Assembly (NCBI GenBank): GCA_045601385.1 | Contig: JAZRZM010000005.1 | Span: 823 to 64,822, forward strand | Source of the DNA: Clostridia bacterium | GTDB taxonomy: Bacteria; Bacillota; Clostridia; Christensenellales; DTU072 | Direction: 5' to 3' | DNA: 64,000 bases | Shown here: positions 21,123-24,850 of the stretch, one piece after another | Layout: each line of letters starts with the position of its first letter | How positions within the stretch are numbered: the stretch's first letter is position 1 | Made by a program: the position numbers and the translations under genes | Notes under the pieces: generated by a model | The model's input: the letters and a program-made list of their open reading frames with translations, nothing else | What the model was told of the DNA's origin: nothing | Databases searched by the model: none

Positions 21123-22175
21123 ATGAAAAAAGTCGTCGCGGCGTCTTTCGGGTTTGTCGGCACGGTTATCGGCGCCGGGTTTGCCTCGGGCAAAGAAATC
21201 GCCCTGTACTTCGGTCAATCGGGCGTCGTCACCCCCGCTCTTTCCGGATTGATTCTCGCTCTTTTTGCCTATCTGTTTTGCGAAACGGGCCGAACCGTCG
21301 GCGATCCGACCGCACTTTTTCCCAAAGGCAAAAAACCGTTTTCGATTTGCGTCGAACTGTCAAACGCCGCCGTGTTTTGTACGACTGTCGCCGGAAGCGA
21401 ACAAACCGTTCTTTCTCTTTGCGGCTTTCACGGCGGAGCAATCATAACGGTTCTTCTGACGCTCGCCACTCTCTTTTTCGGTAAAAAAATCTCTTCGGCG
21501 CTGTCCGTCGTTTCCGTCGTCGCCATTCTCGTCATGATCGGTTATTTGTTTTTCGCCTCGGATATTCCTCTCCCGACAGGAAAATTCAGTCCCCTGTCCG
21601 CGTCTGTCTACGCAGGCATGAACATGCTTACGGGCGGATTCTTTATATCGTCGATGAGTCGTGACTTCACAAAAAAAGACAGCGTACGCACCGCTGTCCT
21701 GACTTTTTTTCTGCTCACCGCTCTTCTTCTCGCCGTCTTCTGCATCGGCAAAAACCACACGGACGAAACCTTTCCTCTGCTCGCCGCAGCCGAAGATCTG
21801 CACGTCGAAAAACTCGGCTCCGCCGTCCTTTTCCTCGCCATGTACACAACCTGCGTCGGCACGATGACCGTCGCCGGCAAAAACGTCCCGGAAAAAAACC
21901 TCGCTCTTGCCTCCGCTTCTCTTCTCGTCTCTTGCCTCGGCTTTGAAAAACTGCTCTCTACGCTCTATCCTATCATCGGCGTGCTCGGCGGATTCTTTTG
22001 CGTCGTTACCGCCGTCTTTTATCTGAAAGAAAAACCCGACAAAAATAATACGTTATCAGTAAGCGACAACCGTAATCCGCTCGTTGTCAAAAACGGCGGT
22101 TCCGGCAAGAGCGGCAGGAAGCGTCAGAGAAACAAGGTCGGTGTTATTAAAAGCACTTTGGGCAACCGAATTTAA
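21123..22175 (+). CDS. polytopic membrane protein (YkvI-like transporter family)
   Basis: Starts MKKVVAASFGFVGTVIGAGFASGKEI, followed by about 10 hydrophobic segments. The frame stays open for 120 nt into the convergent gene. Confidence 0.55.
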   Translation: MKKVVAASFGFVGTVIGAGFASGKEIALYFGQSGVVTPALSGLILALFAYLFCETGRTVGDPTALFPKGKKPFSICVELSNAAVFCTTVAGSEQTVLSLCGFHGGAIITVLLTLATLFFGKKISSALSVVSVVAILVMIGYLFFASDIPLPTGKFSPLSASVYAGMNMLTGGFFISSMSRDFTKKDSVRTAVLTFFLLTALLLAVFCIGKNHTDETFPLLAAAEDLHVEKLGSAVLFLAMYTTCVGTMTVAGKNVPEKNLALASASLLVSCLGFEKLLSTLYPIIGVLGGFFCVVTAVFYLKEKPDKNNTLSVSDNRNPLVVKNGGSGKSGRKRQRNKVGVIKSTLGNRI

Positions 22176-23648
22176 CTTTGAGGCTGCCGAAATATAAAAT
22201 TCAGACAAATTTTCACATCCCGCAAAAGCATTTTCGGAAAGGGTAGTCACGCTATCGGGCAAAGTAAACGCAATCAGAGCCTTGCAGTCGCCGAAAGCCG
22301 ACTTCCCGACGCGGATAAGACCGTCCGGCAAGGATATTTCATTCAGGGACACACACCCGAAAAAGCACTTGTCGTCCAAAACAAGCAAACCGCTTGGCAA
22401 GACGACTTTTTGCAAGGCGGTGCAAAATTGAAAAGCGGAAACGTTCAGCACGGTCCTCTCGTTTCCCTCTTCGAAGGTGACGTTCCGCAAGTTTTTACAG
22501 GACATAAACGCCTGCGCAAAATCAAGGTCGTACGTAGACGGAACGGTCAGATTGACGATCGGAGACGAATTGGAAGAAGTGGGCGTAAAGCCGGCTTTTT
22601 TGATCGCGCGCACAGGAAGCGATTCGTGCCCGTTCGGCAAAACGACGTCGCCGGGAAAACGATCGGGATCCTTTGCGGACAGTTCGTAATAGTCGTTGCC
22701 GAAGTTGTCCGTTTTTTGTTCAAAAGAAAAATACGAATCGGGCGTGGCGACCGAGGCGTTTGAGTTTACCCATTTTGCATACAGCGTGAAATTGTCCGAC
22801 AAAAAAACGTCCGCTTTCCAGTTGTAGGCGACTTGGCAGTCCTCGTCTTCATACCAACCCAAAAAGATTTTTTCGGCGCAGACGGGATCGGACGGTCTTT
22901 CGAGATAAGAACGGATGTTGCCCGTAAACGGTTCGACCGCGCTTCCGCCGTTTGAGTCGAATGTGACGGTAAACGTGCGCGTGGAATACTCGTATTCGTA
23001 CGAAGAACAAACGGTTATATTGTCTTTCAAATCGATTAAACGGTCCTGCGTAACGTCCGTTTCGGTCCCGTCGTCGTTGACGATAACCCATTTTTTCGCA
23101 ACAATGCGCCTTGCCGAGCCATCGGGCTCATTGTTATCGTCATAAAAATATGGAACTTCGGGCAGATCGCCGAGCGCAAGACTGCCACCGAACGGCACGC
23201 CGATATAGGGCGTCGTTTCGTAGGCTTTGACGGTATCTCCGTCGCGTAAGAAAAAGCAAACCAGCACGTCTTTTTGCTTGGTGGTGACGGTATACTTCTT
23301 GATTCGGTCGATGTCCCTTTTGCCGTCGGAGCCGGTCAGGCGCAAGATGACCGTATACTTTTTCCCGCGTTCGAGCGTCACCGTACGGCGACTTGCGACG
23401 GGTAATTCGACATTCTCCTCGTCATACACGCGCACCGACAAATTGAGATTGTATACGGCGGCGTATTTGTCGTAATCGGGAATCGAATAGCGCAAAGTGT
23501 ACTCTCCCGCTTCGACGTCCGTCACGTCGTCGGCAAAGATTTCCGGTCCGTCCGCTCTCCCCGTACAGGCGACGAGCGCAACGACAAAAAACATAATCAG
23601 AAGCGCGATTATACCTTTTTTATTCATCATTTTTTTATCCACATTCAT
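22056..23648 (-). CDS. surface lipoprotein with a Listeria-Bacteroides (Flg_new) repeat and BspA-type leucine-rich repeats
   Basis: Lipobox VVALVAC near the N-terminus. FTVTFDSNGGS...FLGWYEDEDCQ...FTLYAKW is a Flg_new repeat. The C-terminal units 'F.gC..L..v.lP..l..i...aF' are BspA-like LRRs. The start codon is ambiguous (23648, 23630 or 23627) and none has a strong SD. Confidence 0.8.
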   Translation of the reverse strand: MNVDKKMMNKKGIIALLIMFFVVALVACTGRADGPEIFADDVTDVEAGEYTLRYSIPDYDKYAAVYNLNLSVRVYDEENVELPVASRRTVTLERGKKYTVILRLTGSDGKRDIDRIKKYTVTTKQKDVLVCFFLRDGDTVKAYETTPYIGVPFGGSLALGDLPEVPYFYDDNNEPDGSARRIVAKKWVIVNDDGTETDVTQDRLIDLKDNITVCSSYEYEYSTRTFTVTFDSNGGSAVEPFTGNIRSYLERPSDPVCAEKIFLGWYEDEDCQVAYNWKADVFLSDNFTLYAKWVNSNASVATPDSYFSFEQKTDNFGNDYYELSAKDPDRFPGDVVLPNGHESLPVRAIKKAGFTPTSSNSSPIVNLTVPSTYDLDFAQAFMSCKNLRNVTFEEGNERTVLNVSAFQFCTALQKVVLPSGLLVLDDKCFFGCVSLNEISLPDGLIRVGKSAFGDCKALIAFTLPDSVTTLSENAFAGCENLSEFYISAASKLNSVAQSAFNNTDLVSLTLPAALAGTAVFDNERITVVAY

Positions 23649-23826
23649 TATACAGGAATGTCGCCGAAAAGTAAACTCTTTCCACCGAAAAGGGTTCCCG
23701 ATTACACCTCCGTTTCAGTTTTTCGACTTTTTTCGCTTGTGGAAAACCCAAAAAATGTGGATAACCGCGGGTAAATTGTGGACAAATCCTGTATAAATGT
23801 GGATAACCGCGTATAATTGTGGATAA
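23635..23826. promoter_or_regulatory. cluster of six DnaA boxes
   Basis: TTATCCACA at 23635-43. On the other strand: TGTGGAAAA 23738-46, TGTGGATAA 23756-64, TGTGGACAA 23777-85, TGTGGATAA 23798-806, TGTGGATAA 23818-26. Confidence 0.85.
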
Positions 23827-23869
23827 CCGACCGTTTTGCGTCAAAGAAAAAATCCGAACGAAAACGCAT

Positions 23870-23895
23870 AAAAAAAGGTGCCTTTCGGCACCCTT
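23870..23895 (-). terminator. rho-independent terminator after recR
   Basis: The minus strand reads GGGUGCC-gaaa-GGCACC followed by U7. Confidence 0.75.
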
Positions 23896-23922
23896 ACAAA
23901 CGGCTTTTTGCAAAGCGTATTT

Positions 23923-24501
23923 TTATAAATCTTTTCGATCGGACAAAGCCCTTTGCAAAGTGACTTCGTCGGCATATTCGATTTCCGAACCGACCGAAAT
24001 ACCGTACGCAAGGCGCGTGACGCGGATCCCGAGGGGCTTGATTTGTCCGGCGAGGTAAGACGCCGTCAGTTCGCCGCTGATGTCGGGGTTGGTGGCGATA
24101 ATGACTTCTTCCACGCCGACAAGGCGCGCCATCAGTTCCTTGATACGGATATCGTCTACCCCGACGCCGTTCCGAAAGTCGATCGTACCGTGCAAGACGT
24201 GATACACGCCTTTGTACGAACCGAGTTTTTCAAAAGGCGCGATGTCCTTTGGTTGCGCCACGACGCAAATGATTTTTTTAGAGCGGCTTTGGCAAAATTC
24301 GCAAAGGTCGTCCTCGGTATAATTGCCGCATTCGGGGCAAAATCGGACGTTCCTCTTTACTTGCAAAATCGCCTCGGCAAACTCCTCCGCCCTGCTTTGA
24401 TCGCCCTCGACAATGCTGTACGCATACCGAAGAGCCGTTTTTGTGCCGACTCCGGGCAAAGCGCGAAAGCACGCGGTCAGGCGAGAAATCGAGTCGGTCA
24501 T
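23923..24501 (-). CDS. recR: recombination protein RecR
   Basis: LPGVGTKTALRYAY (HhH), zinc finger CPECGNYTEDDLCEFC, and a Toprim region. 192 aa. Confidence 0.95.
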   Translation of the reverse strand: MTDSISRLTACFRALPGVGTKTALRYAYSIVEGDQSRAEEFAEAILQVKRNVRFCPECGNYTEDDLCEFCQSRSKKIICVVAQPKDIAPFEKLGSYKGVYHVLHGTIDFRNGVGVDDIRIKELMARLVGVEEVIIATNPDISGELTASYLAGQIKPLGIRVTRLAYGISVGSEIEYADEVTLQRALSDRKDL

Positions 24502-24502
24502 A

Positions 24503-24850
24503 TCAGAAGAGACCTCCGCCCAGTCCGCCCGTCAGCGGTCCCATAACCTTTTGATATTCTTCTTCCACACCTTCCATCGCTTCGTTGAACCCGGCGAGAA
24601 TCAAGTCCTGCAACATCTCCACGTCGTCCGGATCGACCGCCTCTTTGGCGATTTTGATGCCCGTCAGTTTGCGGTCGCACGTCATTGTGACTTCGACCAT
24701 GCCGCCACCGGCCGTACCGACGACTTCCGTCTCCGCGAGTTGCGCTTGCGCTTCCTGCATATCCGCTTGCATCTTTTGCGCCTGCCGCATCAGTTGTTGC
24801 ATATTTCCGCCGCCGCCGAAGCCGCCGCCGAATCCGTTGAATTTACCCAT
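24503..24850 (-). CDS. ybaB: YbaB/EbfC family nucleoid-associated protein
   Basis: 115 aa. NMQQLMRQAQKMQADMQEAQ...GGGMVEVTMTCDRKL...DPDDVEMLQDLILAGFNEA is canonical for the family. Confidence 0.9.
   Translation of the reverse strand: MGKFNGFGGGFGGGGNMQQLMRQAQKMQADMQEAQAQLAETEVVGTAGGGMVEVTMTCDRKLTGIKIAKEAVDPDDVEMLQDLILAGFNEAMEGVEEEYQKVMGPLTGGLGGGLF

What the first reader, a model, noticed from the sequence alone, without database searches (positions are those of the whole stretch)
23635..23826. Phased DnaA-box array with no dnaA, in the promoter region of an LRR lipoprotein gene
Seen:
- Five same-orientation boxes are complementary to TTATCCACA: 23738 (TTTTCCACA), 23756 (perfect), 23777 (TTGTCCACA), 23798 (perfect), 23818 (perfect).
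- Their spacing is 18/21/21/20 bp, about two helical turns.
- A sixth perfect box in the opposite orientation lies at 23635-43, inside the first codons of the LRR ORF.

Established: this 9-mer is the DnaA-binding consensus. Bacillus subtilis carries non-origin DnaA-box clusters and E. coli has datA, and both modulate initiation.

Inference: this is probably not oriC.
- No dnaA or dnaN is present.
- No obvious AT-rich unwinding element flanks the boxes.
- The long essential genes on both sides (secA, prfB and tsaD to the left; recR, dnaE and uvrC to the right) are all on the minus strand. There is therefore no leading-strand switch here.

The remaining options are a DnaA-titration locus or direct DnaA control of the surface-protein gene.
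Basis: partly seen in the sequence, partly recalled or inferred. Interest (0 to 1): 0.6.

Follow-up and report, generated by a model that had tools for sequence, protein, structure and literature searches.

The report
Conserved non-origin DnaA-box array
A tight, evenly spaced row of binding sites for the replication initiator DnaA lies far from the real replication origin of this gut Clostridia genome; it is an enlarged copy of a three-site module kept across a whole bacterial family, and most likely soaks up or regulates DnaA, as similar clusters do in Bacillus subtilis and E. coli.

Summary
Window 23635-23826 holds 4 perfect and 2 one-mismatch TTATCCACA boxes. The whole 2.17-Mb genome has only 23 perfect boxes, and this is its densest cluster.

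It is not oriC. dnaA-dnaN and the sharp GC-skew minimum lie on another contig. The window's contig has uniform skew over 129 kb.

The array is an expanded copy (A'B'ABC, a tandem duplication) of a three-box module with fixed geometry: A to B about 20 bp, B to C about 22 bp, all boxes co-oriented. The module:
- occurs usually once per genome, in 50 of 81 genomes and 9 of 17 genera of this Christensenellales family;
- occurs in 2 of 380 genomes sampled from the other families of the order;
- is never on the dnaA contig in 10 genomes checked;
- is mid-replichore in the best-assembled relative.

Its neighbours change. The lipoprotein gene is the commonest left neighbour (19 of 30 loci). The distance to that gene's promoter varies from 49 to 118 bp, and four genus relatives (G002, G009, G014, G041) have the same promoter with no boxes.

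Best reading: an autonomous DnaA-binding locus like the B. subtilis DnaA-box clusters or datA. In this genome a sixth box over the lipoprotein transcription start may also repress that gene. No binding data exist.

This scan has noted many such arrays on other DNA. It is a new member of a known kind.

The parts
23818..23826 (-). DnaA box C of the conserved three-box core (perfect TTATCCACA on the minus strand, TGTGGATAA on the plus strand)
   Evidence: aligned with box C of relatives
23798..23806 (-). DnaA box B of the core (perfect); box B is the most invariant box across the family
23777..23785 (-). DnaA box A of the core (TTGTCCACA, 1 mismatch; the closest relatives G001, G010 and G016 carry the same T-to-G variant)
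23756..23764 (-). Extra box B' (perfect). The box plus its spacer, TGTGGATAACCGCGGGTAAAT, nearly repeats box B plus its spacer, TGTGGATAACCGCGTATAAT. This indicates a tandem duplication of the A-B unit.
   Evidence: period 20, 3.8 copies
23738..23746 (-). Extra box A' (TTTTCCACA, 1 mismatch), the left end of the duplicated A-B unit. It occupies the place where relatives carry a short palindrome.
23635..23643 (+). Sixth box (perfect), inverted relative to the array. It lies between the -10 hexamer and the probable start codon of the lipoprotein gene, over the expected transcription start. It is absent at this position in the orthologous loci examined.
23647..23675 (-). Sigma-70-type promoter of the lipoprotein gene: TTTACT, 17-nt spacer, TATAAT. 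The same promoter is found in front of orthologues in relatives.
22056..23630 (-). Lipoprotein gene (524 aa from ATG 23630; lipobox LVAC; Listeria-Bacteroides repeat plus BspA-type LRR). It is the commonest left neighbour of the array in the family.
23874..23895 (-). Intrinsic terminator hairpin of the ybaB-recR operon, immediately upstream (on the minus strand) of the array
23923..24501 (-). recR. It is the right-hand neighbour only in this genome; the array is not next to recR in 29 relatives.

Best explanation
The array is a non-origin DnaA-binding locus. It is this genome's enlarged copy of a family-specific module of three co-oriented consensus DnaA boxes set about two helical turns apart.

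Proposed mechanism (inferred): DnaA binds the boxes cooperatively and head-to-tail, forming a stable oligomer. That oligomer holds DnaA away from the box-poor oriC, and possibly changes DnaA's activity. Initiation potential is thereby buffered, as with the B. subtilis DnaA-box clusters and E. coli datA. The locus doubles when the fork passes in mid-replication.

In this genome the module has grown from 3 to 5 boxes by tandem duplication. A sixth, inverted box sits over the transcription start of the adjacent lipoprotein gene. DnaA bound there, perhaps bridged to the array 95-180 bp upstream, would probably also repress that gene.

Shown: the sites, their rarity, their non-origin position, the module's conservation and geometry, and a cognate DnaA. 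Inferred: DnaA occupancy, titration and repression.
For: Rarity and density:
- 4 of the genome's 23 perfect boxes lie in 192 bp, the densest cluster in the genome.

Not an origin:
- dnaA-dnaN and the skew minimum are on contig C4; contig C5 has almost uniformly negative skew.
- There is no comparable AT-rich element: 80% AT at most, and that lies at the lipoprotein promoter, against 90% upstream of dnaA.

Cognate protein:
- The genome has one DnaA. It matches the B. subtilis DnaA structure 8btg at E = 4e-98, and the domain IV recognition motif is kept (GGRDHSTI against GGRDHTTV).

Conservation of the three-box pattern:
- It is present in 21 of 28 genomes of the genus and in 50 of 81 genomes and 9 of 17 genera of the family, usually at one place per genome.
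- A control with the pattern read backwards gave 0 hits.
- A stricter pattern hit 11 of 20 sampled family genomes against 2 of 380 genomes from 41 other families of the order.

Geometry:
- A to B is 19-22 bp (mode 20), B to C is 20-22 bp (mode 22) and A to C is 40-43 bp, while the spacer sequences differ between genera.

Autonomy:
- Neighbours differ. On the left is the lipoprotein gene or a small membrane protein gene. On the right is a PaaK-like ligase, an M20 peptidase, an RNA methyltransferase, a sugar kinase, or here recR.
- The distance from the lipoprotein -35 to box A ranges from 49 to 118 bp.
- Four genomes keep the lipoprotein/M20 spacer and promoter without any box.
- In this genome the PaaK-like gene moved away and kept no boxes.

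Position:
- dnaA is on a different contig in all 10 genomes checked.
- In relative G017 the array lies 290 kb or more from either end of a 690-kb contig with uniform skew.

Precedent:
- The six non-origin clusters of B. subtilis restrain initiation and also regulate neighbouring genes (PMC3245932).
- Minimal datA consists of co-oriented boxes at optimised intervals (PMC5742627).
Against: - There is no binding, expression or replication data for this organism; all genomes are metagenome assemblies.
- Seven of 28 genus genomes lack the module, five of them 92-96% complete by marker genes, so it is dispensable.
- Most B. subtilis clusters and datA are origin-proximal. This module is mid-replichore in G017, and its distance from oriC in this genome is unknown (at least 105 kb).
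- Three boxes are a small sink compared with datA or the larger B. subtilis clusters.
- The lipoprotein gene is the left neighbour in 19 of 30 loci across two genera, always divergently oriented. That linkage is stronger than pure autonomy predicts.
Confidence: 0.55

Rival explanations
1. The array is mainly a transcriptional operator. DnaA bound to it activates or represses the divergent promoters on either side, above all the lipoprotein gene. This would couple expression of a surface protein to replication status, and any effect on initiation would be incidental.
For: - The array nearly always sits in a divergent promoter region, with the left gene on the minus strand and the right gene on the plus strand.
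- The lipoprotein orthologue is the left neighbour in 19 of 30 loci, including a second genus.
- In this genome a perfect box lies between the -10 and the ATG of the lipoprotein gene.
- B. subtilis DnaA regulates sda, ywlC, yydA and dnaA from such clusters (PMC3245932).
Against: - The distance from the array to the lipoprotein -35 varies from 49 to 118 bp without fixed phasing, whereas the internal geometry is fixed.
- Orthologous lipoprotein genes in G009, G041, G002 and G014 (same synteny) and in G020, G003, G024, G008 and G019 have the same type of promoter and no boxes.
- The module persists next to unrelated genes when the lipoprotein gene is elsewhere.
- The box at the transcription start is seen only in this genome.
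Confidence: 0.3
2. The repeats are iterons or a relic of a mobile element or plasmid origin, or are bound by a protein other than DnaA. Their likeness to DnaA boxes would then be secondary.
For: - The 20-21-bp direct repeats resemble plasmid iterons.
- The flanks of the module change between genomes.
- Short palindromes tend to lie at fixed offsets on both sides: about -29 from box A and +44 from box C.
Against: - The conserved core is exactly the 9-bp DnaA consensus, while the rest of each 20-bp unit varies between genera.
- No rep, integrase or transposase gene is adjacent in any locus examined.
- There is one copy per genome at related positions, and no sign of mobility within a genome.
- The only protein in the genome with a DnaA C-terminal DNA-binding domain is DnaA itself.
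Confidence: 0.07
3. The array is a second or cryptic replication origin.
For: Co-oriented phased boxes resemble the box arrays of Firmicute origins. The dnaA-dnaN spacers of relatives hold similar phased triplets (G019:C9, G024:C79, G003:C13).
Against: - There is no skew change at the array in this genome or in G017.
- There is no dnaA or dnaN nearby in any of 10 genomes checked.
- There is no AT-rich unwinding stretch beside the boxes.
- The array's orientation relative to fork direction is opposite in G000 and G017.
Confidence: 0.03

Closest known systems
[quoted passage not shown] 2012, PMC3245932)
   Same: - Same phylum (Bacillota).
- Intergenic clusters of consensus TTATCCACA boxes outside oriC.
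- They sit in promoter regions of unrelated genes, and the neighbouring genes differ between related species.
- They are expected to bind DnaA cooperatively, and so could both restrain initiation and modulate neighbouring genes.
   Different: - Here there is a single cluster per genome rather than six.
- The core is only three boxes, with fixed two-turn spacing conserved across a family.
- It is mid-replichore in the one relative where position can be judged, whereas five of the six B. subtilis clusters lie near oriC.
- No ChIP or genetic data exist.
Escherichia coli datA (Katayama et al. 2017 review, PMC5742627)
   Same: - A non-coding locus whose essential DnaA boxes (7, 2, 3) are co-oriented.
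- Orientations and interval lengths are optimised.
- It acts negatively on initiation.
- There are three essential boxes, as in the module core here.
   Different: - datA needs an IHF site in a long gap between boxes 2 and 3, and it stimulates DnaA-ATP hydrolysis.
- Here the gaps are 10-13 bp with no room for such a site.
- datA is origin-proximal.
- There is no sequence relationship, and the phylum is different.
DnaA-repressed promoters (dnaA autoregulation; B. subtilis ywlC and yydA)
   Same: In this genome a perfect box lies between the -10 hexamer and the start codon of the lipoprotein gene, the classic position for repression. Further boxes lie upstream.
   Different: The promoter-proximal box is not seen in orthologous loci, and orthologous promoters work without any box. 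Regulation of this gene cannot be what conserves the module.

Membership tests
Non-origin DnaA-box cluster (B. subtilis DBC type) | Several consensus or near-consensus DnaA boxes clustered in an intergenic region outside oriC, far above genome background | tested here: met
   6 boxes in 192 bp against 0.24 per kb genome-wide (at most 1 mismatch). Densest cluster in the genome. Outside oriC.
Non-origin DnaA-box cluster (B. subtilis DBC type) | A cognate DnaA with a conserved box-recognition domain is encoded in the genome | tested here: met
   Single dnaA on C4. E = 4e-98 to B. subtilis DnaA 8btg, with domain IV motif GGRDHSTI.
Non-origin DnaA-box cluster (B. subtilis DBC type) | Stable DnaA occupancy in vivo or in vitro (ChIP, IDAP-seq) | not testable with these tools
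   No experimental data; uncultured organisms.
Non-origin DnaA-box cluster (B. subtilis DBC type) | Deletion causes early or over-initiation; an ectopic copy complements | not testable with these tools
   Genetic test only.
Non-origin DnaA-box cluster (B. subtilis DBC type) | Origin-proximal position (true of five of six B. subtilis clusters; not strictly defining) | tested here: inconclusive
   G000: at least 105 kb from the origin-side end of contig C5. G017: at least 290 kb from the origin-side end of a 690-kb contig with uniform skew. Exact distances are unknown because the assemblies are fragmented.
E. coli datA | Essential boxes co-oriented with conserved interval lengths | tested here: met
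   All core boxes share one orientation. A to B is 19-22 bp and B to C is 20-22 bp in 31 genomes of 7 genera.
E. coli datA | IHF-binding site between the boxes, required for function | tested here: not met
   Inter-box gaps are only 10-13 bp, too short for an IHF site. No IHF consensus scan was run on the flanks.
E. coli datA | Stimulates hydrolysis of DnaA-bound ATP | not testable with these tools
   Biochemical assay only.
Chromosomal origin (Firmicute oriC) | Next to dnaA/dnaN | tested here: not met
   dnaA-dnaN lie on C4 in G000. dnaA is on a different contig from the array in 10 of 10 relatives checked.
Chromosomal origin (Firmicute oriC) | GC-skew sign change at the site | tested here: not met
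   Skew is negative on both sides throughout the window and almost all of C5 (23 of 25 5-kb windows, no switch at the array). The sign change is at C4 about 24-25 kb. G017:C7 is uniformly negative.
Chromosomal origin (Firmicute oriC) | AT-rich unwinding element flanking the boxes | tested here: not met
   The highest 40-bp AT content near the array is 80%, and it lies at the lipoprotein promoter and start. Upstream of dnaA it reaches 90%.
DnaA-regulated promoter | Box overlapping or adjoining core promoter elements | tested here: met
   Box 23635-43 lies between the -10 (23652-23647) and ATG 23630.
DnaA-regulated promoter | Box-to-promoter arrangement conserved among orthologous promoters | tested here: not met
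   The gap from the -35 to box A is 49-118 bp. Orthologous promoters exist without boxes. The box at the transcription start is specific to G000.

The most novel reading that the evidence does not exclude
The three-box, fixed-interval module, possibly together with short palindromes at about -29 and +44, is the Clostridia counterpart of E. coli datA or DARS. It would be a single-copy chromosomal site that catalytically changes DnaA's nucleotide or oligomeric state rather than merely titrating it. Its lineage lacks Hda, SeqA and IHF, and no such locus is known there.
Probability: 0.1. Interest if true: 0.7.

Novelty: new member of a known kind. Interest (0 to 1): 0.4.

Why it matters
Control of replication initiation outside E. 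coli and B. subtilis is poorly known. I found nothing in the paper library on non-origin DnaA sites in Clostridia. A single, family-wide three-box module with conserved two-turn spacing is a compact and easily synthesised test object. It could be used to ask how DnaA oligomers form away from the origin. It could also show whether gut Clostridia (Christensenellales) buffer initiation by titration. The expansion from 3 to 5 boxes, plus an operator-position box in this genome, shows how such a site can be recruited for gene control.

Tried and rejected
- oriC: rejected on dnaA position, GC skew and AT content.
- An element tied to recR: rejected. None of 29 relatives has a box cluster downstream of recR.
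- TATAAT-like hexamers in the spacers as rightward promoters: rejected. The hexamer spacing does not fit a sigma-70 promoter, and the hexamers disappear outside the genus.
- A structured or small RNA: no credible Rfam match in 23300-24200, only a far sub-threshold Histone3 hit on the terminator hairpin.
- Flank palindromes as a conserved hairpin: fold z-scores were only weakly better than a control region (mean -1.1 against -0.3), and column information content was low. I left this as an unproven observation.
- The idea that part of the array stayed with the displaced PaaK-like gene: rejected. Its upstream spacer on C49 has no boxes.
- Strand counts of long ORFs were uninformative because of shadow ORFs, so I used GC skew and named genes instead.

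Full report
OBSERVATION

- Five boxes are complementary to TTATCCACA and share one orientation. They lie at 23738 (TTTTCCACA), 23756 (perfect), 23777 (TTGTCCACA), 23798 (perfect) and 23818 (perfect), spaced 18/21/21/20 bp.
- A sixth, perfect, inverted box lies at 23635-43.

The assembly is 2,171,008 bp in 62 contigs, and the window is C5:823-64822. It holds only 23 perfect boxes and 517 boxes with at most one mismatch. About 0.002 perfect boxes are therefore expected in 192 bp, and four are present. A scan for at least 3 boxes within 300 bp finds four places in the genome. This one has 6 boxes and the other three have 3 each. Tandem Repeats Finder reports a 20-bp period with 3.8 copies.

SETTING

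On the minus strand the order is ybaB (24503-24850), recR (23923-24501), a strong intrinsic terminator (23895-23874), the five boxes, and then a sigma-70-type promoter, TTTACT-17-TATAAT (23675-23647). Next come the sixth box and a 524-aa lipoprotein gene with a Listeria-Bacteroides repeat and a BspA-type LRR domain.

The ATG at 23648 overlaps the -10 hexamer. The start that matches the orthologues and gives a normal lipoprotein signal peptide (MMNKKGIIALLIMFFVVALVAC) is 23630. The sixth box therefore sits over the expected transcription start, not in the first codons.

NOT THE ORIGIN

- The only dnaA is at C4:22969-24342, followed by dnaN at 24538.
- Their spacer has three boxes, and a 90% AT stretch lies upstream of dnaA.
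- The GC skew of C4 switches from -0.07 to +0.12 at about 25 kb, where the cumulative skew has its minimum.
- Contig C5 has negative skew along almost all of its 129 kb (23 of 25 5-kb windows), with no change at the array.
- From the sign of the skew, the origin lies beyond the high-coordinate end of C5. The array is therefore at least 105 kb from it.

The DnaA protein is a close homologue of B. subtilis DnaA (E = 4e-98 to 8btg) and keeps the recognition helix motif. TTATCCACA is thus its expected target.

WHAT ORGANISM

Two relatives' loci are identical to public metagenome-assembled genomes labelled 'uncultured Christensenella sp.' and 'uncultured Clostridia bacterium'. A more distant one is labelled 'uncultured Christensenellaceae'. 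The lineage is therefore Christensenellales (Bacillota).

THE ARRAY IS A CONSERVED MODULE

It is not tied to recR. None of 29 relatives has a box cluster downstream of recR.

A phased box pattern nevertheless occurs widely within the family:
- in 20 of 28 genomes of the genus, nearly always as three boxes at one place;
- in 21 of 28 genus genomes when the three-box pattern is searched with mismatches allowed;
- in 50 of 81 genomes and 9 of 17 genera of the family;
- with zero hits for the pattern read backwards.

A stricter version hit 11 of 20 sampled family genomes. It hit only 2 of 380 genomes from the 41 other families of the order.

The geometry is fixed. Box A to B is 19-22 bp (mode 20), B to C is 20-22 bp (mode 22), and A to C is 40-43 bp, about four helical turns. 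All boxes are co-oriented. The spacer sequences differ between genera, apart from AAC(T) after each box and an A/T-rich run before it.

In this genome the boxes at 23777, 23798 and 23818 align with A, B and C of the nearest relatives, including the shared TGTGGACAA variant of box A. The boxes at 23738 and 23756 are a tandem duplicate of the A-B unit.

NEIGHBOURS

With the array written as TGTGGATAA, the left gene diverges from it and is the lipoprotein orthologue in 19 of 30 loci, covering the genus and one other genus. In several other loci the left gene is a small membrane protein or some other gene.

The right gene is a PaaK-like AMP-binding ligase, a membrane-anchored M20 peptidase, a TRAM/U5 RNA methyltransferase or a sugar kinase. 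Only here is it the 3' end of recR.

This genome's PaaK-like orthologue is on C49 with a box-free upstream spacer. A rearrangement therefore cut just to the right of the array.

The lipoprotein promoter is recognisable in 18 genomes, but its -35 lies anywhere from 49 to 118 bp from box A.

Four genomes keep the lipoprotein/M20 spacer and promoter without any box. Five others have the lipoprotein gene elsewhere, again without boxes. The promoter does not need the array, and the array does not need the lipoprotein gene.

POSITION

dnaA is on a different contig from the array in all ten genomes checked.

In G017 the array lies at 399 kb of a 690-kb contig. The skew of that contig is negative in 19 of 20 samples and about zero in the other one. 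The array is thus at least 290 kb from the origin side and at least 399 kb from the other end of a 1.9-Mb genome, which places it mid-replichore.

The array's orientation relative to fork movement is opposite in G000 and G017.

INTERPRETATION

The module behaves as a self-contained DnaA-binding site: consensus boxes, constrained phasing, free spacers, one copy per genome, and changing neighbours. The closest known systems are these.
- The B. subtilis non-origin DnaA-box clusters. Deleting all six advances initiation, some of them also regulate adjacent genes, and the flanking genes differ between Bacillus species (PMC3245932).
- E. coli datA. Its essential boxes are co-oriented with optimised intervals (PMC5742627).

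I therefore favour a role as a sink or regulator for DnaA. In this genome there is an added repressive input on the lipoprotein gene from the box at its transcription start.

The main rival is that transcription control of the flanking divergent genes is the primary function. The frequent and consistently oriented linkage to the lipoprotein gene keeps it alive. The variable distances and the box-free orthologous promoters weaken it.

Iteron or mobile-element readings and a second origin are unlikely, for the reasons given under the rival explanations.

LIMITS

- No binding, expression or copy-number data exist.
- The assemblies are fragmented, so the distance to oriC in this genome is only a lower bound.
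- Seven of 28 genus genomes lack the module, five of them 92-96% complete by marker genes, so it is not essential.

CONTEXT AND SCORE

A sample of 120 triple phased-box loci from across bacteria had dnaA or dnaN within about 8 kb in only 23 cases. The scan's own notebook holds over a hundred notes on such arrays in other genomes. As a class this is familiar.

What is specific here is the family-wide three-box geometry in Christensenellales. It is a new member of a known kind, of moderate interest.

Noticed in passing
own genome contig C4:22780-24540 (outside the window): Probable oriC. A 90% AT stretch lies upstream of dnaA (C4:22897-22965). The dnaA-dnaN spacer has only three near-consensus boxes (24337, 24356, 24387) plus AT-rich DNA, and the GC-skew minimum is here. 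The origin holds fewer strong boxes than the array in the window.
   Followed up: partly
own genome contig C60:5388-5510 (outside the window): A second small intergenic DnaA-box cluster, with two perfect boxes and one one-mismatch box. It includes an adjacent pair, TGTGGATAACTCTGTGGACAA. It lies downstream of an undecaprenyl-diphosphatase-like gene and near ychF.
   Followed up: no
relatives' loci, about -29 to -16 from box A and +44 to +52 from box C (e.g. L229, L230, L237-L241): Short palindromes tend to sit at fixed offsets from the module. The upstream one has arms that differ between genomes but stay complementary (GTAGC/GCTAC, GTAAC/GTTAC, GTCAAC/TTGAC, TGCGGC/GCCGCA). The downstream one is GGGTACCC-like. 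They are present in roughly a third to a half of genomes. Fold z-scores are only weakly better than a control region, and this genome lacks the upstream one.
   Followed up: partly
L218 (G005), L219 (G004), L234 (G011), about 56 bp right of box C: A fourth perfect box sits in the loop of a perfect 6-bp inverted repeat (CGTAAT-TGTGGATAA-ATTACG) in three related genomes.
   Followed up: no
L098-L217 (genome-contig scan): Triple phased DnaA-box arrays are widespread, in Anaerolineae, Actinomycetes, Clostridia, spirochaetes and others. Only 23 of 120 sampled loci have dnaA or dnaN within about 8 kb. L141 (a Treponema MAG) carries a long 21-bp tandem repeat whose unit contains TGTGGACAA. L164 and L166 (Spirochaetaceae/Sphaerochaetaceae) have very dense box pairs.
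   Followed up: no
window 22056-23630 (-): The lipoprotein has an N-terminal region of about 200 aa with no Pfam match. That region is conserved among orthologues (motif AEDVxDVPEGEYTL). There are only far sub-threshold NCBIfam hits, to the HupY/LrrG LRR adhesin and to a Treponema neuraminidase model. The genus carries dozens of BspA-type LRR paralogues per genome.
   Followed up: partly
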